A DNA stretch of 52,318 bases, taken from positions 1 to 52,318 of the IMG/VR virus record IMGVR_UViG_3300032331_000666. One strand, 5' to 3'. The notes under the pieces are model-generated. The model was not told the DNA's origin and searched no databases. It saw only the letters and a program-made list of their open reading frames with translations. A program made the position numbers and the translations under genes. The DNA comes from a virus. Its lineage: Duplodnaviria > Caudoviricetes. The stretch's first letter is position 1. Each line of letters opens with the position of its first letter. Positions 44,535-52,212 of the stretch are shown here, one piece after another.

Positions 44535-44638
44535 ACAAACTTCAAGCAATCGTAGAAGCTATTATAATCTTAACTATCATGTGGTTTTTTTATGGCTTTA
44601 TTAAAGTATGTCTTATGGCCTACGACTTCTTTATCTAA
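44531..44638 (+). CDS. 35-aa membrane peptide
   Basis: MNKLQAIVEAIIILTIMWFFYGFIKVCLMAYDFFI; ATGA overlap. Confidence 0.5.
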   Translation: MNKLQAIVEAIIILTIMWFFYGFIKVCLMAYDFFI

Positions 44639-45253
44639 CTACCAAAACATAGTCAATACGTCATCAATACGTATTAAATGCCCCTGCAATGTAATCCTGT
44701 AATCACCTTCAACATATTCTTTTAGTCCAGCAATTCTATGTAATACAGTTCCATCATGGCCTATGATCTCTTTCTCTGCATAAGGCAGATACTTTTGCTC
44801 TCCATCTTCAATATAATCCAACCCTCCCCCACCTGTAGGTAGTTTAATTACCACTGTAAATGCATAGGGGTCAATACTGCCTAAATCTAGAGTAATATGC
44901 GGGTAGTCTTTATGCCAAAGTCCTGCATGGGTGAGCAGGAATCGGCTTGAAACGAATATATGAAAGGATGGGTGAGATAGAGAATAGTTAAGCTTTATTG
45001 GCTCTTTAAACTGATCTGATAAGTAATCAATAATGATATCATATGTGTCGCCAAACTGTTCACGCAGTATGGGATTTAATACCTTGAGATCTTGTCTGTA
45101 TTCTGGAGTCTTACCATCTAGGTAAGCGTTTCTTCCAAGCGTATAGAAGAAAAATTCATTTGATCTGGATACCCAATACTTCTGAAGTCTAAAGACTTTA
45201 TCAGCTATCTCTTCAGTATTGATATCTAATTTGTGAGAAATAAAAGGGGGCAT
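44639..45253 (-). CDS. Fe(II)/2-oxoglutarate oxygenase-like protein
   Basis: HKD (HxD), FTVVIKLP.GGGGL, distal LHRI and RITLQGH (R-x-T) fit a DSBH dioxygenase; ATG at 45253 (alternative TTG at 45262). Confidence 0.7.
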   Translation of the reverse strand: MPPFISHKLDINTEEIADKVFRLQKYWVSRSNEFFFYTLGRNAYLDGKTPEYRQDLKVLNPILREQFGDTYDIIIDYLSDQFKEPIKLNYSLSHPSFHIFVSSRFLLTHAGLWHKDYPHITLDLGSIDPYAFTVVIKLPTGGGGLDYIEDGEQKYLPYAEKEIIGHDGTVLHRIAGLKEYVEGDYRITLQGHLIRIDDVLTMFW

Positions 45254-45260
45254 AGCCCCC
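45242..45260 (-). terminator. Terminator/attenuator hairpin after pqqA
   Basis: Minus strand GGGGGC-TAT-GCCCCC-TTTT, 9 nt after the pqqA stop. Confidence 0.75.
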
Positions 45261-45269
45261 AATTATACA

Positions 45270-45341
45270 TTACTTATTCATTACGTACATCGTCACTTCA
45301 AAGCCAAATCTCATTTCTGTTGCTGATGGAGTTGTCCACAT
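45270..45341 (-). CDS. pqqA: Pyrroloquinoline quinone precursor peptide PqqA (MWTTPSATEMRFGFEVTMYVMNK)
   Basis: Canonical MW..P....R.GFEVTMY with E-x3-Y core; AAAGGA RBS; 23 aa. Confidence 0.97.
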   Translation of the reverse strand: MWTTPSATEMRFGFEVTMYVMNK

Positions 45342-45524
45342 AATATTTTCCTTTGTATATAAAAAAGACCTATTTTTGCTACACAAACACCTTTGTATGT
45401 AATTTACTCCATACAAGCTAGTTTGTATTGAATATAATGCGCCTTTTGCTATACAAAGTCCTCCATAAAACCATGAATGACAGGTAAAAAAGTAACTCTA
45501 ACAATAAGTAGAGATAGAAATAAG

Positions 45525-45542
45525 TGTAAAGTATGCTTTACA
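45525..45542. promoter_or_regulatory. Palindromic operator-like site TGTAAAG-TATG-CTTTACA
   Basis: Perfect 7-bp inverted repeat in a divergent intergenic region. Confidence 0.5.
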
Positions 45543-45675
45543 TTGGTTTTCACTCAAATCATTGATTTATATACAAATGAATGAAAACAATATTTAATCA
45601 ACTGTAAAAATCAATATGCCTTCTATATAACATTTAGTTATATACATCTATTTCTATATAACTTATATAAATATG

Positions 45676-45704
45676 TTGACACGGATATAGGGATTTGATA
45701 TAGT
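45676..45704 (+). promoter_or_regulatory. Strong sigma70 promoter
   Basis: TTGACA-17 nt-TATAGT. Confidence 0.85.
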
Positions 45705-45709
45705 TTCGT

Positions 45710-45815
45710 TGTGAGTCCCTTTCCTCACATGTCTTTCCTTTACATCTCTCTCGTAAAGTCTCGGTGTCCCTCGCACCTTAAAACCCTTAGATTAAAACCT
45801 AGGGGTTTTTCTTTT
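45710..45815 (+). ncRNA. Small RNA with three C/U-loop hairpins plus intrinsic terminator
   Basis: TGTGAG-TCCCTTTC-CTCACA; CTTTAC-ATCTCTCTC-GTAAAG; GGTGT-CCCTC-GCACC; bounded by a promoter and a terminator; no RBS-led ORF. Confidence 0.8.
45780..45815 (+). terminator. Intrinsic terminator of the sRNA
   Basis: AAAACCCTTAG-ATTAAAAC-CTAGGGGTTTT, then TCTTTT. Confidence 0.8.
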
Positions 45816-45822
45816 ATACCCC

Positions 45823-45851
45823 TTGCATTTTGTTTTAAACAGGAGTAAATT
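45823..45851 (+). promoter_or_regulatory. Probable promoter for the replication operon
   Basis: TTGCAT-17 nt-TAAATT. Confidence 0.5.
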
Positions 45852-45919
45852 TATAAATGAGAGAAGTGAATGAAAGACTAGTGATGTATTTCTACGTCAT
45901 TATCTTCCTATTCCCTTTT

Positions 45920-46170
45920 GTCCGTACTCCAAACGTTATCACTGAACCTAAATGGGTTGCGTGGAATAATACATAGGCCTTGTTACACCCGCAAGCGAGC
46001 CTCGTGAACTTAAATGGGTATCACACAAGATATACTGCCACGGGGTGACTTGCCAACAGTATGTCGATTGAACATTAACTCTGTGTAGGACTGGTATTGG
46101 GTAGCTTCTATTGCTTAATGTGGGTCAAAGGTGTGTCCATCTCACCCTTGGCGGAGCCATATTCTAAAAA
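45920..46170 (+). other. Structured, relatively GC-rich element upstream of the replication genes
   Basis: TGAACYTAAATGGGT at 45943 and 46005; GATATACTG/CAGTATGTC stem; AGGC-CTTG/CAAG-GCCT stem. Confidence 0.45.
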
Positions 46171-46184
46171 AACGAAAGGATCAA

Positions 46185-46358
46185 ATGAGTTTTATAAAAA
46201 GAAAGGAAGACGGCTTCCTAACAAAGAAGCTTGTACAAGAACTAAAGTTGTATCATACTACTCCTGAGGAACTAGATCCTATTAGAAAGATCGCAATTGA
46301 TTACTTACTCTCGGATAGTTGGAAGAATTACAAAACATATAAGGGAACTCCACAATGA
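46185..46358 (+). CDS. Hypothetical protein
   Basis: AAAGGA RBS before MSFIKRK. Confidence 0.55.
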   Translation: MSFIKRKEDGFLTKKLVQELKLYHTTPEELDPIRKIAIDYLLSDSWKNYKTYKGTPQ

Positions 46359-46528
46359 ATTTTACACATGCGGTTGTAGATGATGGCGATATTATAAGAA
46401 AGTATCGTTGGTCTAAACGAGAAGCTAAATGGTATAAAGATTCTCATCCTGATATAGATGTGATACAGTTGCCTAAAGAAGAAGTAAAACCATTTAACAC
46501 TAATGATTATGAAGAGGCACCATATTAA
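46355..46528 (+). CDS. 57-aa hypothetical protein
   Basis: MNFTHAVVDDGDIIRKYRWS...EEAPY; AAGGGA RBS. Confidence 0.6.
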   Translation: MNFTHAVVDDGDIIRKYRWSKREAKWYKDSHPDIDVIQLPKEEVKPFNTNDYEEAPY

Positions 46529-46686
46529 TGACTGACACAAAGAAAACAATAATAGTTGAAAACGTTTTAGTTAAGGGGTATATTAAACACGCTAATGGAA
46601 AAAAGACTATGTTTGAATTTAACAAGCAAGACTTTAAACCAGCATCATTCGAGAAAATATTTGAGGAAGTAGGTCGTAAGCTTTAA
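46528..46686 (+). CDS. 52-aa hypothetical protein
   Basis: MTDTKKTIIVENV...; TAATG coupling at both ends. Confidence 0.6.
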   Translation: MTDTKKTIIVENVLVKGYIKHANGKKTMFEFNKQDFKPASFEKIFEEVGRKL

Positions 46687-46913
46687 TGTATACAAAGTTA
46701 GATGATATGAAAATGGCACAAAAGATTTTGCTCTATATTGAAAAGAATCCAAGAGCCACAAGAAAAGACATTACAAAGTATTGCTTTACAAATATGCGTA
46801 GGTTGAGACAGTTAGAAGCAGAAGGATATATAAATATCCCACCACCTATGCCAAGAGAAATCAGGAATAGGGATTACTATGAGAACAAAGCCATTCAATC
46901 AGCAAGTTCATGA
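46686..46913 (+). CDS. Small winged-helix-like protein
   Basis: IL.YIE.NP.ATRKDI...RLRQLE.EGYI. Confidence 0.5.
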   Translation: MYTKLDDMKMAQKILLYIEKNPRATRKDITKYCFTNMRRLRQLEAEGYINIPPPMPREIRNRDYYENKAIQSASS

Positions 46914-47301
46914 TGCCTGTGATCCTCCCGCAAGAGAGGCAATAATTAAATACATTAAAGCTACATGGGGTTTAAATGCTTGGCACAACCCTGATAAGTA
47001 TGCGGTAGATTTAATTATAGAGCGTGATAAAGAGGCGATTGGATACGCAGAGATAGAAATGAGAGATTGGGATCATTGCCCGTTCAAAACAATCCATATA
47101 CCTAAACGAAAAGATAAACTATTTGATAATGGTAAGCACACAATTTATTTCGTTGTGTCAAGAGGCATTAGCAAGGCTTGGTATGTTAATTCACAAGTGA
47201 TTAAAAATTCAGCAGTGCAAGAGATACCTAACAAAGCTGTTAGTCAAGGAGAATATTTTTATGATGTGCCTACATACCTATTCACTGAAATAAGTTTGTA
47301 G
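46879..47301 (+). CDS. PD-(D/E)XK-like nuclease
   Basis: YAVDLI...GYAEIEMR...TIHIP.RK.K. Confidence 0.55.
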   Translation: MRTKPFNQQVHDACDPPAREAIIKYIKATWGLNAWHNPDKYAVDLIIERDKEAIGYAEIEMRDWDHCPFKTIHIPKRKDKLFDNGKHTIYFVVSRGISKAWYVNSQVIKNSAVQEIPNKAVSQGEYFYDVPTYLFTEISL

Positions 47302-47314
47302 CATAGAATTATAA

Positions 47315-47614
47315 ATGAGAGACAATAAACCACAATACACTGATTTAGAGCATAGGATATTAGAACTATCTGATGTGATAGACATGTTAAATGAAGAGAA
47401 CATTCATCTCAAAGATATTATTGCCTCTCACCAATGGAATGCAACCGAATTTGAAAAAGATTATATACTGCACGAGATCACAAGTTTAAGACATCAAGTA
47501 TTAGTTTTAGAAAAGAGTGAACATAGTGCAATAGCAAGTCGTGATATGTTTCAAGATAGGAATGCAGAGTTATTAAAACAACTTGCGTATTATAAGAAGC
47601 TCCAAAAAGCTTAG
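47315..47614 (+). CDS. Coiled-coil hypothetical protein
   Basis: SRD.FQ.RNAEL motif; precedes the helicase. Confidence 0.55.
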   Translation: MRDNKPQYTDLEHRILELSDVIDMLNEENIHLKDIIASHQWNATEFEKDYILHEITSLRHQVLVLEKSEHSAIASRDMFQDRNAELLKQLAYYKKLQKA

Positions 47615-47652
47615 CCCACCCCAGAGGGTATCTGGACGTTAAAAGGATAATT

Positions 47653-49140
47653 ATGTTAGAACTTAGAGAACACCAACAAGGTGTCATTGATGCATTGCGA
47701 CAAGGATTTAAAGAGGGTCATAGAGCTCAACTACTATATGCACCTACAGGATTTGGCAAGACAGAGGTAGCTATCTATCTAATGGAAGCTACAAGGAAAA
47801 AAGATAACAGATCAGCAATGATCTTAGATCGCATAGTCTTAGTAGATCAAACATCACAAAGATTAGACAAGTATGATATCTTTCATGGCGTTCACCAAGC
47901 TGACCATTGGAAATATAATACATCAGAACTAATTCAAATATGCTCTTCTCAAACATTAGAGCGCAGACAAGACTTTCCAAAGATGGATGTATTAATCATT
48001 GATGAATGTCATATTGCACGCAAACAGATTGTTGATCTAATTAAAAACAATCCAAATCTTAGGGTCATTGGCTTAACTGCTACTCCGTTTACCAAGGGCT
48101 TAGGTAATATCTATACTAATGTGGTATGTGGATCAACTACACAATCACTTGTTGTTAATAAATGGTTAGCCCCACTCAAAGTCTATATCGCTAAAGAGAT
48201 TGATATGAAGGGTGCTAAAAAGATTGCAGGTGAATGGTCTCCTGATGTAGTGACTGAACGAGGCATGAGGATTACAGGGGATATCGTTCAAGAATGGATT
48301 AAAAAGACGCATGAGATATTCGGCAGACCACGCAAGACTATTGTCTTTTGTGCGGGAGTAGCACATGGTTTAGACTTAGTTAAACAGTTTGCCGAGAAGG
48401 GATATAACTTTGTATCTATCTCATATAAAGAAACAAGTGAATTTAAGAAGGAGGTGATCGAGAACTTTAGCAAGCCCGATACAGACATTCATGGATTGAT
48501 TGCTACAGACATATTAACTCGTGGATTTGATGTCCCTGATGTCATGATCGGAGTGTCCGCTAGGCCATTCAGTAAATCCCTATCCTCTCATATTCAACAG
48601 ATGGGTAGGGTGATGCGCCCCTCAACTGATAAAGACTTTGCCTTATGGTTAGATCATTCAGGTAATTATATTCGCTTCCGTAATGAGTGGGAAGAGGTAT
48701 ATCAAGAAGGCGTTAAAGACTTAGACGAAAGTAAGGTCGAACACGCACACAAAGAACCAACAGAACGAGAAAAGATAGAGGCTAAGTGTCCATCATGCTC
48801 AGCACTATGGGAACAAGGATCAGAGGAATGCTATGCTTGTGGATACGTTAGGAAGAAAAAACAATTTGGTTCATTAGCGGGTGAGATGCATGAGCTAGGC
48901 ATGAATGGCCGAGATGATGTAAGGCACAGACAACAATTCTTCTCTGAGCTATTGTATGTAGCTAAGAACAAAAACTACAGTCCTAATTGGGCAAGCCATA
49001 AGTATAGAGAAAAGTATGGTGTATGGCCTAGAGATTTAGTATTTAGAACCGAGACTCCATCTATTACTACAATGAATTGGATTAAGCATAGAATGATTGC
49101 TTATAGTAAAGCCAATAAAAAAGATAGGAAGGTAGCATGA
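47653..49140 (+). CDS. Superfamily 2 DNA helicase with Zn finger
   Basis: APTGFGKT, IIDECH, GLTATP, GFDVP, QQMGRVMR, CPSC...CYACG. Confidence 0.93.
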   Translation: MLELREHQQGVIDALRQGFKEGHRAQLLYAPTGFGKTEVAIYLMEATRKKDNRSAMILDRIVLVDQTSQRLDKYDIFHGVHQADHWKYNTSELIQICSSQTLERRQDFPKMDVLIIDECHIARKQIVDLIKNNPNLRVIGLTATPFTKGLGNIYTNVVCGSTTQSLVVNKWLAPLKVYIAKEIDMKGAKKIAGEWSPDVVTERGMRITGDIVQEWIKKTHEIFGRPRKTIVFCAGVAHGLDLVKQFAEKGYNFVSISYKETSEFKKEVIENFSKPDTDIHGLIATDILTRGFDVPDVMIGVSARPFSKSLSSHIQQMGRVMRPSTDKDFALWLDHSGNYIRFRNEWEEVYQEGVKDLDESKVEHAHKEPTEREKIEAKCPSCSALWEQGSEECYACGYVRKKKQFGSLAGEMHELGMNGRDDVRHRQQFFSELLYVAKNKNYSPNWASHKYREKYGVWPRDLVFRTETPSITTMNWIKHRMIAYSKANKKDRKVA

Positions 49141-49970
49141 GGTTCGAAGACTTTGCAAGGATACATGGTTTAATCATTGATAATCTTATCCCACATAGAC
49201 AAGTAAGAACACCAACAGAAGACCATCCAAGAAGTAGGAATGGGTCATATAAATTCTTAGGTGATGTAGGCTTTGTAATGAATTGGGCTACTATGGAAGA
49301 GCCAGCAGTATGGTTTCCTGATAAACAAAACGCCTCAAGCGTAGTGCTAAAAAAGAGTTCAGTCGATCACACTAAAGAGCGTGAACGCCTAGCCAAGAAG
49401 GCAAGTGATAAAGCGGGGTGGATATTGCACCAATGTAAAGAAGAGACGCATCCATACTTAGCATCTAAAGGATTTCCAGATGAGGTAGGTAATGTCTGGA
49501 CAAAGGATGATGAACGCATATTAGTTATACCCATGAGGATCGATAAACGACTTGTTGGATGTCAGCTCATCAATAGCAATGGGGTCAAGAAGTTCCTGTA
49601 TGGACAAACGACCAAGGGGGCAACTCTTACCATGAACGCAAAGGGTCTCCCTATTTTCTGCGAGGGTTATGCGACTGCCCTCAGTATCAGAGAGGCCATG
49701 ATCGCTAATAACATCAAGTATTCTATCCACGTTTGCTTCAGTGCATCCAACATGAAGCTGATAGCAGGGCAATTTCCCTACGGGCTGATCGTTGCCGATA
49801 ACGATAATTCCCATGTGGGTGAGACTACCGCTAGGAAAACAGGCAAGCCTTATTGGCTCTCCGAGACAGTCGGGGATGATTTCAATGATTTTCATAAACG
49901 AGTAGGCACTTTCAAGGCCTCTCAGTCCCTCAAAAAGAAATTAATAGAGATAGGTAGCTTGGTGATCTAA
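49137..49970 (+). CDS. TOPRIM-domain primase
   Basis: HPYL.SKG, Q.I...G.K.F, CEGYATALS, VADND, GDDFND. Confidence 0.88.
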   Translation: MRFEDFARIHGLIIDNLIPHRQVRTPTEDHPRSRNGSYKFLGDVGFVMNWATMEEPAVWFPDKQNASSVVLKKSSVDHTKERERLAKKASDKAGWILHQCKEETHPYLASKGFPDEVGNVWTKDDERILVIPMRIDKRLVGCQLINSNGVKKFLYGQTTKGATLTMNAKGLPIFCEGYATALSIREAMIANNIKYSIHVCFSASNMKLIAGQFPYGLIVADNDNSHVGETTARKTGKPYWLSETVGDDFNDFHKRVGTFKASQSLKKKLIEIGSLVI

Positions 49971-49979
49971 ACTACCTAT
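49950..49979. terminator. Hairpin between convergent operons
   Basis: ATAGGTAG...CTACCTAT inverted repeat. Confidence 0.5.
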
Positions 49980-49985
49980 TATAGA

Positions 49986-50366
49986 TCAATAAAAATAAAG
50001 ATTATTGACTTGCGCTAACAAAGGCTTCTTAAATACATTCTGTTTTGGGTGTATTCTACTATCGTGAAAAAACTGAGAATGCCCTACAGGATTATAAGTA
50101 TAACCTTTTTGTTTCGTTAGAAATTTAACTGCCTGTAGCTTATAAGTCAGCAATTGAATATGGCTTGGTTCTTTAGCTTTACCTTGTTGTAGCAAGGTTA
50201 TATACTCGAATTGTTTTGGCTCGTAAACTGTATCACAGACTCGGCTAATCGTCTTGGCTCGGTTCATAACTACATTATAAACTGCCTGTTGATTAGCAAA
50301 ATCACCACCCGCTTCACCGAATAATACAAGGGCAAGACAAGTGCTTGCTAGTTCTAGTTCTACCAT
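49986..50366 (-). CDS. SleB-like cell wall hydrolase (Hydrolase_2)
   Basis: CLAL..FGEAGG...AV..VVMNR...VC..VY.PKQF...FFH...LYFY. Confidence 0.85.
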   Translation of the reverse strand: MVELELASTCLALVLFGEAGGDFANQQAVYNVVMNRAKTISRVCDTVYEPKQFEYITLLQQGKAKEPSHIQLLTYKLQAVKFLTKQKGYTYNPVGHSQFFHDSRIHPKQNVFKKPLLAQVNNLYFY

Positions 50367-50468: not shown

Positions 50469-50657
50469 CTATCCCTTTTCCCCAAAATCAGCAATTAAAA
50501 CTACCAATTCATATTCATCACTGAATTCTTTAATAGGTGCTTTAGTCCATAGATAAGTCATAGCATACTTATATATGCTAGTTCCACTCTTCTTCTTTAC
50601 CTTATAGGCTTGGCACTTAAAAAACTCTGCCCCCTTCAAAGCCTGTTGCTCAGTCAT
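50469..50657 (-). CDS. Small early protein
   Basis: GAGG RBS; ATGA coupling. Confidence 0.55.
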   Translation of the reverse strand: MTEQQALKGAEFFKCQAYKVKKKSGTSIYKYAMTYLWTKAPIKEFSDEYELVVLIADFGEKG

Positions 50658-50877
50658 TTTTAACCTCTACAATGCGAAACTCTTCACGATCAGGCACATC
50701 AGCTAGATAATTGTCATCAACGGCAGTTTGGCAGTCTTGAAAAAACATATCTAATTCTTCTTTTGCCACCTCATACTTGTCATATGTAGTAGGTATAGTA
50801 TTCCCATCATCATCTTCATAAGACCATGTATTAGTCCAACCGCCACATAAACATAACTCCTGAATTTCATAGGCCAT
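50650..50877 (-). CDS. Small acidic early protein
   Basis: GGAGG RBS; GWTNTW...FRIV. Confidence 0.6.
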   Translation of the reverse strand: MAYEIQELCLCGGWTNTWSYEDDDGNTIPTTYDKYEVAKEELDMFFQDCQTAVDDNYLADVPDREEFRIVEVKND

Positions 50878-51049
50878 GACAATCCTCCCTGTATAAGTTC
50901 ATAACTTCTCTCTCACTTAATCCAACCTTACCGATTAAATGTTGCTTTAAAGTATTTAAGTTTATATCTTTAGTTTCTGTATCTTGGCAATAGTATTCCA
51001 ATTCTTTCTTACCAATATACTCTAATGCGTAATCTACTAACTTGCTCAT
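50867..51049 (-). CDS. Small early protein
   Basis: AGGAGG RBS. Confidence 0.6.
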   Translation of the reverse strand: MSKLVDYALEYIGKKELEYYCQDTETKDINLNTLKQHLIGKVGLSEREVMNLYREDCHGL

Positions 51050-51057
51050 ATATCCTC

Positions 51058-51249
51058 CTAGTGTGAATTAGCATTGGCTTCTTGATCCGAAGCCCAATTA
51101 TCTATGCAATTATCAAACCTTCTCATAGACTCCTCTGCAATAGCAGTCATAAGTTTAAGATAGTCATCACCCTCAACTCCTTCAATCTCATCTGCATCTT
51201 GCATAGCCTCTAATACGCTTTTATATATTGCTAATGCTCTGTTGTTCAT
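51058..51249 (-). CDS. Small acidic early protein
   Basis: AAGGGG RBS before MNNRALA; AMQDADEIEG...Y..LM. Confidence 0.6.
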   Translation of the reverse strand: MNNRALAIYKSVLEAMQDADEIEGVEGDDYLKLMTAIAEESMRRFDNCIDNWASDQEANANSH

Positions 51250-51532
51250 TATTTTCCCCTTTAAAGTAAAATTCATATTCCTCCCAAAACTCTTTTGCAC
51301 TATTGATATTAATATATTCACTATGAGTTTCGTTGTAATTATCTTGCGTTTGCCATACAATCCTAAAGCCTAAGTCTAAAAAATCACCATCTTCCTCAGG
51401 ATTATAATCTGTGTCATAGTTCATATCCTCAACCTTGCCCGAACCATCACTTCTAAACCATTCAAAAGCAGTTTGATCGGCCATAGCTTGTGCTAAAGCA
51501 TAAGCATTGGCTTCTGTTATTTGCTCACTCAT
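51221..51532 (-). CDS. Acidic early protein
   Basis: GAGGAGG RBS region; D/E-rich. Confidence 0.55.
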   Translation of the reverse strand: MSEQITEANAYALAQAMADQTAFEWFRSDGSGKVEDMNYDTDYNPEEDGDFLDLGFRIVWQTQDNYNETHSEYININSAKEFWEEYEFYFKGENNEQQSISNI

Positions 51533-51728
51533 CATCTTCCTCCTCATCTTGCATTTCTAAATAACGCTTATATTCCTCGTTAAGTTCGTCATCAGTATAA
51601 TTGTTGTATCCTTTTCTGCCATTAAGAAGCATATCTCTTATACAATCATCATTCTCTCCCATAGACATACTAGCCACACCATTCATATCATCTTCCAAAA
51701 GTTCATCTATCATTTCTTTCCTGTTCAT
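51525..51728 (-). CDS. Highly acidic early protein
   Basis: GGAGG RBS; G.KGY..YTD.EL..EY. Confidence 0.6.
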   Translation of the reverse strand: MNRKEMIDELLEDDMNGVASMSMGENDDCIRDMLLNGRKGYNNYTDDELNEEYKRYLEMQDEEEDDE

Positions 51729-51880
51729 AGCTTTTCCTCCGTATATACATCTTTATATTTAAAAGTAATAACTAACATCTCATGCGTAGGGTCTGCTTCA
51801 CATACCTTACATATATCAACCCATGTATCAATATGATTAAAATCATCAGGATACAGTTTTAAATGCACAAATTCACTCAT
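51725..51880 (-). CDS. 51-aa early protein
   Basis: MSEFVHLKLYPDDF...; coupled at both ends. Confidence 0.55.
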   Translation of the reverse strand: MSEFVHLKLYPDDFNHIDTWVDICKVCEADPTHEMLVITFKYKDVYTEEKL

Positions 51881-52046
51881 CACCTTCCTCCTCTACATGG
51901 TCTATTGTGAAATTATCGCTATCGCAAGGTTCTAAAGCACTTGTCATCATGTCATAAAACTTTTCAATAGCTTCATCTCTTGTTTCGGCTTCAACCTCTT
52001 CCTGATAATACACTTGCTCACTTGCTTTAATTATAAATCTAGGCAT
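51873..52046 (-). CDS. 57-aa acidic DpnD/PcfM-like protein
   Basis: MPRFIIKASEQVYYQEEVEAETRDEA; GGAGG RBS. Confidence 0.6.
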   Translation of the reverse strand: MPRFIIKASEQVYYQEEVEAETRDEAIEKFYDMMTSALEPCDSDNFTIDHVEEEGDE

Positions 52047-52212
52047 TTTCTACCTCCTCAACTGATAATATTTCAAAGTTTACATCTTCAACTGCAACCC
52101 AATCGTTTAGATCAATACCATTAGATATGCTTTCTGCCTCTGCCTCGTTTTCTGCATCAACATCAATTTCATACAAAGTAGTGACCTCTGCGGTTATACT
52201 AAACTTTTTCAT
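52039..52212 (-). CDS. 57-aa acidic DpnD/PcfM-like protein (paralog)
   Basis: MKKFSITAEVTTLYEIDVDAENEAEA; GGAGG RBS. Confidence 0.6.
   Translation of the reverse strand: MKKFSITAEVTTLYEIDVDAENEAEAESISNGIDLNDWVAVEDVNFEILSVEEVENA

What the first reader, a model, noticed from the sequence alone, without database searches (positions are those of the whole stretch)
45676..45815. Stand-alone ~105-nt small RNA with anti-Shine-Dalgarno-like C/U loops
Seen: a near-consensus promoter (TTGACA-17-TATAGT), then three hairpins with loops UCCCUUUC, AUCUCUCUC and CCCUC joined by pyrimidine linkers (GUCUUUC, UCUC), then an intrinsic terminator. There is no RBS-led ORF. Established: sRNAs with C-rich loops (for example the cuckoo-type RNAs of Alphaproteobacteria) pair with G-rich ribosome-binding sites. 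Candidate in-window targets: GUGUCCCUCG (45764-73) forms 10 bp (2 G-U) with CGGGGGACAU, the RBS of the first recombination-operon gene (38381-90), and UUUCCUUU (45734-41) matches the pqqA RBS AAAGGAAA. Matches this short are not significant by themselves. Inference: a phage multi-loop translational regulator or protein sponge transcribed divergently from pqqA.
Basis: partly seen in the sequence, partly recalled or inferred. Interest (0 to 1): 0.75.

Follow-up and report, generated by a model that had tools for sequence, protein, structure and literature searches.

The report
Phage antisense sRNA targeting neighbouring leader
A small RNA gene of an uncultured freshwater phage is real and conserved, and its variable middle part matches the start of the long structured RNA leader next door that precedes the phage's replication genes, so it most likely acts as an RNA switch on those genes rather than on the distant ribosome-binding sites first proposed.

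Summary
At 45676-45815 there is the best sigma-70-like promoter of the region, three hairpins and an intrinsic terminator. A covariance model finds the unit once in each of 27 viral contigs, with compensatory changes in 13 of 23 pairs. No Rfam family matches.

The proposed targets are not supported. The recombination-operon RBS ranks 368th and the pqqA RBS 2905th of 10,456 windows.

The central segment (45724-45755) instead pairs with the first ~30 nt of the next transcript (45857-45886). This is the best site of 26,144 windows. The pairing co-varies: in 30 distinct sRNA/leader pairs, cognate duplexes average -26.1 kcal/mol against -20.4 for non-cognate (0 of 10,000 permutations).

The target is the 5' arm of a leader hairpin. 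A conserved but weak second promoter precedes it. It heads a ~260-nt unknown structured core found in 95 viral loci, upstream of helicase and primase genes.

Best reading: a tandem antisense regulator. It works like Gifsy-1 IsrK, P4 CI and P1 c4 but belongs to none of those families. Transcription, the second promoter and the direction of control are untested. The scan's only earlier notes are on this window.

The parts
45624..45669 (.). Two operator-like palindromes just upstream of the sRNA promoter (8-bp arms at 45624-45644; 7-bp arms at 45655-45669). Role inferred only.
   Evidence: Read. This upstream block is conserved in 11 of 15 family loci. In L014, L008, L009 and L015 a different palindromic block replaces it, and conservation resumes at the -35 element.
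45676..45704 (+). Promoter P1 of the sRNA (TTGACA, 17 nt, TATAGT, with TG before the -10).
   Evidence: Matches 11 of 12 consensus positions, the best in 37.5-52.3 kb. The -35 element is invariant in 15 of 15 aligned loci.
45711..45728 (+). Hairpin 1, at the predicted 5' end of the RNA. It is invariant in the window's family, with loop UCCCUUUC.
   Evidence: In diverged variants the stem changes by compensation (5 of 6 pairs) and the loop keeps a C-run.
45724..45755 (+). Antisense (specificity) segment: the 3' arm of hairpin 1, the linker, and the 5' arm and loop of hairpin 2. It is hypervariable among homologues.
   Evidence: It pairs with 45857-45886 at -28.7 kcal/mol. That site ranks first of 26,144 windows. 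The pairing co-varies with the leader.
45738..45758 (+). Hairpin 2 (6-bp stem, 9-nt CU-repeat loop).
   Evidence: Several stem types occur, each keeping 6-7 of 7 pairs.
45763..45777 (+). Hairpin 3 (loop CCCUC).
   Evidence: L011 and L012 carry fully compensated variant stems.
45780..45815 (+). Intrinsic terminator of the sRNA (11-bp stem, 8-nt loop, U-run).
   Evidence: 6 of its 12 pairs change on both sides across the family.
45823..45851 (+). Inferred second promoter P2 (TTGCAT, 17 nt, TAAATT), with a predicted start near 45857.
   Evidence: The TTG of the -35 and most of the -10 region are conserved in 15 of 15 loci and recur in diverged variants. It matches only 7 of 12 consensus positions and the scan does not list it. 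No start-site data exist.
45857..45922 (+). Leader hairpin P0 of the downstream transcript. Its purine-rich 5' arm (45857-45886) is the sRNA target. Its pyrimidine-rich 3' arm resembles the sRNA's antisense segment.
   Evidence: All 15 leaders fold as one long hairpin despite very different sequences. 59 of 388 pairs are G-U, and the hairpin is more stable on the + strand in 15 of 15 loci.
45923..46184 (+). Conserved structured core of the leader RNA, function unknown. It runs up to the ribosome-binding site (46174-46180) and ATG (46185) of the first gene.
   Evidence: 68 predicted pairs, 31 of them with compensatory change, in 14 sequences. The ORF 45857-45976 is not conserved. The core motif occurs in 94 viral-contig stretches. 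No Rfam match.
46185..49970 (+). Downstream operon: small proteins, a winged-helix protein (46686-46913), a helicase (47653-49140) and a Toprim primase (49137-49970).

Best explanation
The finding is a genuine, independently transcribed phage small RNA of about 105 nt. It belongs to a family not in Rfam.

Its constant parts are a 5'-terminal hairpin with a C-rich loop, a third hairpin and a terminator. These frame a hypervariable central segment of about 30 nt.

That segment is an antisense determinant. It pairs with the first ~30 nt of the transcript that starts about 45 nt past the sRNA terminator, at a conserved second promoter. Those nucleotides form the 5' arm of a long leader hairpin (P0). 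The sRNA segment resembles the hairpin's own 3' arm, so the sRNA should compete with that arm, most easily while the leader is still being made.

This would refold the leader or expose it to cleavage. The leader is P0 plus a ~260-nt conserved structured core, and it precedes the replication operon. The result would be a change in that operon's expression, most likely repression.

Both partners vary from phage to phage yet stay matched. The pair therefore looks like a specificity (immunity- or incompatibility-like) determinant.

Shown here: the gene anatomy, conservation, structural covariation and co-varying complementarity. Inferred: that both RNAs are made as drawn, that pairing occurs in trans, and the direction and mechanism of control.
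For: 1. Gene anatomy and fold.

2. Family: model R1 finds one copy per locus in 27 of 96 sources at E <= 0.01, always directly upstream of the core and never in the other core-bearing loci. 13 of 23 pairs are compensatory.

3. Complementarity within the window: the antisense segment's best site among 26,144 32-nt windows on both strands is 45857-45888. It scores -28.4 kcal/mol against a mean of -6.2 (sd 3.3).

4. Co-variation:
- 15 family loci: cognate -27.0 against non-cognate -21.1 kcal/mol.
- 24 distinct pairs including diverged variants: -30.9 against -22.7.
- 30 distinct pairs after the metagenome scan: -26.1 against -20.4, with the sRNA's own leader best for 12 of 30 and in the top three for 17 of 30.
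- In each test, 0 of 10,000 permutations did as well.

5. Diverged variants have a different hairpin 1 yet still match their own leader. L022/L053 and L035/L090 each have 18-19 contiguous bp; L037, L044, L056, L059 and L061 also match.

6. The target is the 5' arm of a conserved hairpin that starts about 3 nt after the predicted start. That hairpin is specific to the + strand.

7. The -35 and -10 of P2 are conserved in 15 of 15 loci, and the sRNA upstream block is swapped as a module.

8. Precedent: prophage Gifsy-1 IsrK has its own promoter and terminator. Its middle part pairs with ~30 nt downstream on the same strand, and the short form acts in trans (PMC4825925: abstract and sections 12 and 21 read).
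Against: No experiment or read data show either RNA's ends.

P2 matches only 7 of 12 consensus positions and the promoter scan does not list it. The leader could therefore be made only by read-through from P1, which would make the pairing intramolecular.

When the whole sRNA body is used, the leader site ranks only about 15th among non-self windows. The higher-ranked duplexes are long and patchy.

Some natural pairs are poorly matched:
- L036 has only 9 bp, and 133 of 200 shuffles do as well.
- The own leader ranks 20th of 30 for L016 and 24th of 30 for L103.

The permutation tests do not correct for relatedness of the loci.

The intermolecular duplex is only slightly better on the + strand than on the - strand: -30.9 against -29.1 kcal/mol, better in 15 of 24.

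A modelled effect on the first gene's RBS is inconsistent. With the 5' 30 nt blocked, accessibility falls in 8 of 14 loci and is flat or higher in 6 of 14. The direction of control is therefore open; IsrK activates its target.

The invariant C-rich loops 1 and 3 remain unexplained.
Confidence: 0.65

Rival explanations
1. Cis-only leader switch. There is no functional second promoter. The replication operon is transcribed from P1 through a leaky terminator, and the 45724-45755 / 45857-45886 pairing is an intramolecular alternative helix within that long transcript, like the long isoform of IsrK. The terminated short RNA would be a by-product.
For: P2 matches only 7 of 12 consensus positions and the scan does not list it. 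Everything lies on the same strand and is adjacent in all 27 loci. In IsrK the same pairing first forms in cis in the read-through transcript (PMC4825925, section 12).
Against: The terminator is strong (11-13 bp plus a U-run) and is maintained by compensatory change in 6 of 12 pairs. That argues the short RNA is a selected product. The TTGC-type -35 and TAnnnT -10 at 17-18 nt recur in otherwise unalignable variants, and P0 begins about 3 nt after the predicted start in all of them. Pairing with a segment made after the terminator cannot control that terminator. Cis and trans action are not exclusive.
Confidence: 0.15
2. The pyrimidine-rich loops act as anti-Shine-Dalgarno elements on distant phage or host ribosome-binding sites, or they sponge an RNA-binding protein. 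This could be the main function or a second one.
For: Loops 1 and 3 are invariant in the family, and a C-run in loop 1 and a CCCUC-like element before the terminator recur in diverged variants. These features are not explained by the antisense model. The RBS of the first downstream gene is purine-rich (GAAAGGA, GAGGAG or AAGGGA types), which loop 1 could pair with over about 6 bp.
Against: The named targets are unexceptional: ranks 368 and 2905 of 10,456. The loops do not co-vary with the variable first-gene RBS. No Rfam anti-SD-type sRNA family matches. The host genome is unknown, so host targets cannot be scored.
Confidence: 0.1
3. DNA-level repeats. The three related segments (in the sRNA, the P0 5' arm and the P0 3' arm) would be binding sites for a replication or regulatory protein, like iterons at an origin next to the replication genes, and not RNA pairing partners.
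For: The locus lies next to helicase and primase genes. The plus/minus strand asymmetry of the intermolecular duplex is small.
Against: P0 contains 59 G-U pairs among 388 and is more stable on the + strand in 15 of 15 loci. G-U pairs are also fixed in the sRNA helices. What is conserved between the copies is complementarity with bulges, not sequence identity. The segments sit inside a promoter-to-terminator unit.
Confidence: 0.03
4. Type I toxin-antitoxin pair. The sRNA would be the antitoxin for the 39-aa hydrophobic ORF at 45857-45976, whose start it covers.
For: In the window the ORF starts at the predicted +1, has a hydrophobic stretch, and the sRNA pairs across its AUG.
Against: The ORF is not conserved. 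Among 15 loci the distance to the shared stop is 0, 1 or 2 modulo 3. Four loci stop after 3-9 codons, and L012 has no ATG. The region shows RNA-type covariation instead.
Confidence: 0.02

Closest known systems
IsrK sRNA of Salmonella prophage Gifsy-1 (PMC4825925; abstract and sections 12 and 21 read)
   Same: A prophage or phage sRNA with its own promoter and intrinsic terminator. Its middle part is complementary to ~30 nt a little further downstream on the same strand. The short RNA acts in trans on the longer transcript by competing for one strand of a helix, which switches the leader between alternative structures.
   Different: No Rfam isrK or C4 match. Here a conserved second promoter appears to start the target transcript just after the terminator. 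The target is the extreme 5' end of an ORF-less leader, not the 3' part of a small ORF. A ~260-nt conserved structured core follows. The downstream genes are replication genes, not an antirepressor-like protein. The direction of control is unknown, whereas IsrK activates.
P4 CI RNA with seqA/seqC, and P1/P7 c4 RNA (Rfam C4 family). P4 as summarised in PMC4825925 section 21; c4 as in passages of PMC8201110. Citron & Schuster 1990 was seen only as a reference entry.
   Same: Phage-encoded antisense RNAs that act on complementary sites in the same-strand leader of the operon next to or around them. In P4 they keep the replication genes off. That RNA-RNA matching sets P1/P7 heteroimmunity is my recollection, not taken from a call.
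   Different: CI and c4 are cut out of the operon transcript, whereas this RNA has its own promoter and terminator. They pair with two sites. There is no covariance-model match. Whether this phage is temperate is unknown: no integrase is seen in the 83%-complete contig.
ColE1 RNA I / RNA II copy-number control (recalled, no call)
   Same: A ~105-nt RNA with three stem-loops binds the 5' end of a several-hundred-nt structured RNA of a replication module as it is made, and changes its downstream folding.
   Different: RNA I is a fully complementary cis-antisense transcript from the opposite strand. Here the regulator is encoded in tandem on the same strand and shares only 20-30 nt of imperfect complementarity. 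Nothing shows that the leader primes replication.
   Same: Several hairpins with pyrimidine-rich loops and a stand-alone gene.
   Different: No Rfam match. The co-varying partner is not an RBS. The proposed RBS targets are unexceptional.

Membership tests
Rfam C4 antisense RNA / isrK families (P1 c4, P4 CI, IsrK) | Match to the family covariance model | tested here: not met
   cmscan found 0 matches at gathering score over the whole window. At E <= 10 there was no C4 or isrK row on 45200-46300 or on 45700-45825.
Rfam C4 antisense RNA / isrK families (P1 c4, P4 CI, IsrK) | Complementarity to a site in the same-strand leader of the adjacent operon | tested here: met
   45724-45755 pairs with 45857-45886, the top site of 26,144 windows. 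The pairing co-varies in 30 distinct pairs.
Rfam C4 antisense RNA / isrK families (P1 c4, P4 CI, IsrK) | Made by processing of the operon transcript (c4, CI) | not testable with these tools
   The anatomy argues otherwise: own promoter and terminator, as in IsrK. No read data cover the RNA.
Anti-Shine-Dalgarno multi-loop sRNAs (cuckoo-type and similar) | Match to a described family model | tested here: not met
   The best rows are 6.8-16.2 bits against gathering scores of 36-59.
Anti-Shine-Dalgarno multi-loop sRNAs (cuckoo-type and similar) | C-rich loops pair with ribosome-binding sites of target mRNAs | tested here: inconclusive
   The named targets rank 368 and 2905 of 10,456. The loops are invariant while the nearest RBS varies. 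Host mRNAs are not available.
Type I toxin-antitoxin (sRNA antitoxin) | A conserved small toxin ORF in the target RNA | tested here: not met
   The frame and length of the 45857-45976 ORF are not kept in 15 loci.
Cis-antisense control RNAs (ColE1 RNA I, IS10 RNA-OUT, lambda OOP type) | [quoted passage not shown] | tested here: not met
   The regulator and target lie on the same strand, 100-130 nt apart, with imperfect 20-30 nt pairing.
Independent bacterial-type sRNA gene | Own promoter, no conserved ORF, intrinsic terminator, conserved structure | tested here: met
   Transcription itself was not shown.

The most novel reading that the evidence does not exclude
The sRNA and the leader hairpin P0 form an RNA-only specificity switch, a heteroimmunity or superinfection-exclusion determinant that diversifies like plasmid incompatibility RNAs. 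The switch gates a previously undescribed class of large cis-acting phage leader RNA: the ~260-nt core found in at least 95 viral loci behind three different kinds of upstream control module. That core would itself be a new functional RNA, for example a processive antiterminator, a replication-priming RNA or a ligand sensor, controlling phage replication genes in uncultured freshwater phages.
Probability: 0.25. Interest if true: 0.85.

Novelty: new variant of a known kind. Interest (0 to 1): 0.7.

Why it matters
Only a handful of phage-encoded regulatory RNAs are understood, and nearly all come from enterobacterial phages.

This is a new sRNA family from uncultured freshwater phages whose target can be read directly from co-variation. 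That is rare for a trans-acting sRNA. There are dozens of natural specificity variants, 27 distinct sRNA bodies and 29 distinct leaders among 30 pairs, which amount to a ready-made compensatory-mutation series.

The sRNA also points to its target. This is a large, strongly covarying leader RNA with no Rfam family, found in 95 viral loci upstream of replication genes. In at least one GenBank record it is annotated as tiny hypothetical ORFs on the wrong strand.

If the pair sets immunity or incompatibility between related phages, it would be an RNA-only analogue of repressor/operator diversification. The matched pairs could also serve as orthogonal riboregulator parts.

Tried and rejected
Expression data. 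One run search gave four coded runs (X1-X4; X2-X4 are lake or freshwater metatranscriptomes kept as Logan contigs). I laid them on 44600-47600. No contig lay on 45711-45811. Contigs cannot show this, and RNAs of ~105 nt are usually lost, so this says nothing either way.

Known families. Rfam on the window, on 45200-46300, on 45700-45825 and on 15 related loci gave nothing near any gathering score.

Cultured relatives. A blastn of 45600-45900 against the phage collection gave only a 37-nt chance hit in an Acinetobacter phage. The leader gave one partial hit, in an uncultured spring phage. The helicase gave no close cultured relative.

Host. The genome-collection scan with the hairpin-1 18-mer gave one hit, which was a chance match in GC-rich DNA.

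Alignment. MAFFT could not put hairpin 2 in register. The tool-based pair counts therefore cover hairpins 1 and 3 and the terminator only. Hairpin 2 was tabulated by script.

RBS occlusion model. Blocking the 5' 30 nt lowered the predicted accessibility of the first-gene RBS in 8 of 14 loci, and left it flat or raised it in 6 of 14. This was inconclusive and I dropped it as a claim.

Antitermination idea for the core. No strong + strand terminator lies in 46200-50000, so nothing supports it.

Rejected readings: type I toxin and DNA iterons.

Literature. Five searches found no description of this RNA or of the core. PMC12197685, a 2025 review of phage sRNAs, was seen only as a listing with the start of its abstract.

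Earlier notes of this scan covered this window only.

Full report
What the window is. The window is a whole viral contig of 52,318 bases, estimated 83% complete.
- Structural genes occupy 1-38 kb on the + strand.
- A recombination module follows: PD-(D/E)XK exonuclease and Erf, 38.3-40.5 kb.
- A two-gene minus-strand island (pqqA-like peptide, 207-aa protein) lies at 44.6-45.4 kb.
- After the finding comes a + strand operon with a winged-helix protein, a helicase and a Toprim primase.
- No tRNA and no Rfam family is found anywhere in the window.

The observation.
- The promoter is TTGACA, 17 nt, TATAGT, with TG before the -10. It is the single best sigma-70-type match between 37.5 and 52.3 kb, at 11 of 12 positions.
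- The RNA that would start near 45711 folds into three hairpins with loops UCCCUUUC, AUCUCUCUC and CCCUC. An 11-bp terminator stem and a U-run follow.
- The fold energy is -29.7 kcal/mol, z -5.9, and 0 of 200 shuffles fold as well.
- The opposite strand folds less exceptionally (z -3.8).

Conservation of the unit.
- The 18-mer of hairpin 1 is exact in 15 viral-contig stretches. 14 are homologous units and 1 (L018) is a chance hit.
- A probe from hairpin 3 found 11 stretches, all among those 14. Hairpin 1 is therefore invariant in loci found without using it.
- All 15 family RNAs (105-122 nt) fold into the same four-helix layout.
- Covariance model R1 was built on them. It also recovers full-length diverged variants: L037, L073, L089, L056, L022, L053, L091, L059, L036, L035, L090 and L061.
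- In total there are 27 loci at E <= 0.01 among 96 sources searched, with one copy each.
- On the 24 best hits (21 distinct rows), 97.1% of cells are paired and 13 of 23 pairs change on both sides. 0 of 500 shuffles reach this, and slid controls give at most 4 such pairs. The alignment was fitted to the model, which favours the structure.
- Hairpin 2 could not be aligned by MAFFT. A script shows several different stems, each keeping 6-7 of 7 pairs.
- Stop-free runs in the RNA shift frame and length among homologues, so there is no conserved ORF.
- A scan of metagenome contigs with the 18-mer added 28 stretches: 26 family members and 2 chance hits.

What lies next to it. In all 15 loci the terminator is followed by a conserved TTGC-type -35 and a TAAATT/TATATT-type -10 at 17 nt (window 45823-45851). 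After that comes about 330 nt with no conserved reading frame.
- The window's 39-codon ORF (45857-45976) is in a different frame relative to the shared stop in other loci. It stops after 3-9 codons in four of them and lacks an ATG in L012.
- The stretch is a structured RNA instead. RNAalifold on 14 sequences gives 68 pairs, 31 of them with compensatory change, and many fixed G-U pairs.
- Its first ~66 nt fold in every locus into one long hairpin, here called P0. P0 starts about 3 nt after the predicted transcription start. Its 5' arm is purine-rich and its 3' arm pyrimidine-rich, and the sequences are very different from locus to locus.
- P0 has 59 G-U pairs among 388 and is more stable on the + strand in 15 of 15 loci.
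- The remaining ~260 nt (the core, from 45923) is highly conserved.
- A 19-nt degenerate core motif occurs in 94 viral-contig stretches, which gives 95 loci counting the window.
- Only 27 of these, plus L007 whose upstream is cut, carry the sRNA arrangement.
- Many of the others carry a different structured 5' domain that ends in a terminator-like hairpin just before the core. In several it follows a small Cro-like helix-turn-helix gene.
- No Rfam family matches these loci.

The target.
- The sRNA's segment 45724-45755 comprises the 3' arm of hairpin 1, the linker, and the 5' arm and loop of hairpin 2. It is complementary to 45857-45886, the 5' arm of P0. The duplex has runs of 8, 5, 7 and 4 bp at -28.7 kcal/mol, and 0 of 300 shuffled leaders do as well.
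- Scanned against all 26,144 32-nt windows of both strands of the contig, this segment's best site is that leader site. It scores -28.4 kcal/mol against a mean of -6.2 (sd 3.3).
- With the whole sRNA body the leader ranks only about 15th among non-self windows. Long patchy duplexes with coding regions score higher.

Co-variation of the pairing. The decisive point is that the pairing co-varies.
- The antisense segment and the leader 5' arm are the most variable parts of the locus, yet they stay matched.
- Among 15 loci, cognate duplexes average -27.0 against -21.1 kcal/mol for non-cognate.
- Among 24 distinct pairs including the diverged variants, the figures are -30.9 against -22.7.
- After the metagenome scan, 39 of 43 loci could be parsed. 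The four dropped were L110 and L126 (chance hits) and L111 and L121 (cut by the contig end).
- Those 39 give 30 distinct pairs, at -26.1 against -20.4. The sRNA's own leader is best for 12 of 30 and in the top three for 17 of 30.
- In each test 0 of 10,000 permutations did as well.
- Variants whose hairpin 1 is entirely different still match their own leader. L022/L053 and L035/L090 each have 18-19 contiguous base pairs; L037, L044, L056, L059 and L061 also match.

Results against this reading.
- L036 carries an sRNA that matches its leader over only 9 bp.
- For L016 and L103 the own leader ranks 20th and 24th of 30.
- The permutation tests ignore relatedness of the loci.
- The intermolecular duplex is only marginally better on the + strand, -30.9 against -29.1 kcal/mol.

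The duplex with the recombination-operon RBS (-21.0) ranks 368th and that with the pqqA RBS (-14.1) ranks 2905th of 10,456 windows. Neither stands out.

How it most likely works. The sRNA segment and the 3' arm of P0 are both complementary to the 5' arm of P0. The sRNA therefore mimics that 3' arm.
- The part that meets the extreme 5' end of the leader (the GAGAGA-type start) is displayed in the loop of hairpin 2, or in a single-stranded stretch in the diverged variants.
- I infer that the sRNA captures the 5' arm, most easily before the 3' arm has been transcribed. It then prevents or opens P0 and changes the fate of the leader and the replication operon behind it.
- Repression by refolding or by cleavage of the duplex is the commonest outcome for such RNAs. 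However, a thermodynamic test of RBS occlusion was inconsistent: accessibility fell in 8 of 14 loci. The closest precedent activates its target. The sign of control is therefore open.
- The second promoter is inferred from conservation and position only. By consensus it matches 7 of 12 positions and the scan does not list it. If it is not a promoter, the same pairing would act within a read-through transcript, which is the cis-only rival.

Comparison with known systems.
- The closest is IsrK of prophage Gifsy-1. It is an sRNA with its own promoter and terminator whose middle part pairs with ~30 nt downstream on the same strand. The short form acts in trans on the longer transcript to switch alternative structures (PMC4825925: abstract and sections 12 and 21).
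- That paper also summarises P4, where CI RNA pairs with seqA and seqC to keep the replication genes off.
- P1 C4 antisense RNA controls Ant expression (passages of PMC8201110).
- The present RNA works like these but is not a member. No C4 or isrK covariance-model match exists, and it is not cut out of an operon transcript.
- Its target is the 5' end of an ORF-less leader that carries a large unknown core.
- ColE1 RNA I/RNA II is a functional look-alike recalled from memory, but it is cis-antisense.

Novelty. Five literature searches found no description, and supplements were closed. No cultured phage in the phage collection holds the unit. I rate it a new variant of a known kind. The adjacent core RNA, which is the subject of a separate first-stage note, may be more novel than the sRNA itself.

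Noticed in passing
window 45857-46184; loci L021-L100: A ~330-nt ORF-less, strongly covarying leader RNA made of the P0 hairpin and a ~260-nt core. It has 68 predicted pairs, 31 of them compensatory. The core motif occurs in 94 viral-contig stretches, and there is no Rfam match. Its function is unknown. It is also the subject of first-stage note e1-6298046.
   Followed up: partly
window 45886-46268: In three lake or freshwater metatranscriptome runs and one run labelled RNA but probably DNA, whole short contigs of 151-313 nt lie inside the leader (X2 45886-46188, X3 45952-46152, X4 45943-46204, X1 45941-46091 and 46118-46268). This is only a weak hint that the leader RNA is abundant. DNA may be present in such libraries, and contigs break at strain variants.
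   Followed up: partly
window 45269-45356: RNA contigs of the same runs match the pqqA-like gene at 90-99% identity and then continue into unlike sequence on both sides (tables 7 and 8). They probably come from host or other pqqA copies, not from this phage.
   Followed up: no
window 45624-45669; L014, L008, L009, L015 upstream of the sRNA promoter: Two palindromes sit just upstream of the sRNA -35 element. In four family loci a different palindromic block replaces them, and homology resumes exactly at the -35. This looks like exchangeable operator sites for a DNA-binding regulator.
   Followed up: no
L024-L027, L038, L041, L048 and many others (class B); L021, L029, L030 and others; L051, L078, L097, L099, L100: Loci that have the core but no sRNA carry other structured 5' domains of about 140 nt. 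These end in a long-range stem plus a U-run only 12-20 nt before the core. In several loci they come directly after a 76-86-aa Cro-like helix-turn-helix gene that is divergent from a recombination operon. They may be regulated terminators standing in for the sRNA/P0 module.
   Followed up: partly
L101 (GenBank MW202674.1, 5130-5377 of the record): A diverged copy of the core in an uncultured spring phage is annotated as several 30-50-aa hypothetical proteins on the opposite strand. This is probably a mis-annotation of a non-coding RNA.
   Followed up: partly
L036, L016, L103: These loci are natural mismatched combinations, in which the sRNA specificity segment and the leader 5' arm appear to come from different types. 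They may be recombinants, and so natural tests of whether matching is required.
   Followed up: no
window 50469-52212, minus strand: A run of small, very acidic ORFs (52-108 aa) is transcribed leftwards from the right end of the contig. This is typical of early host-takeover genes. No integrase was seen in the contig.
   Followed up: no
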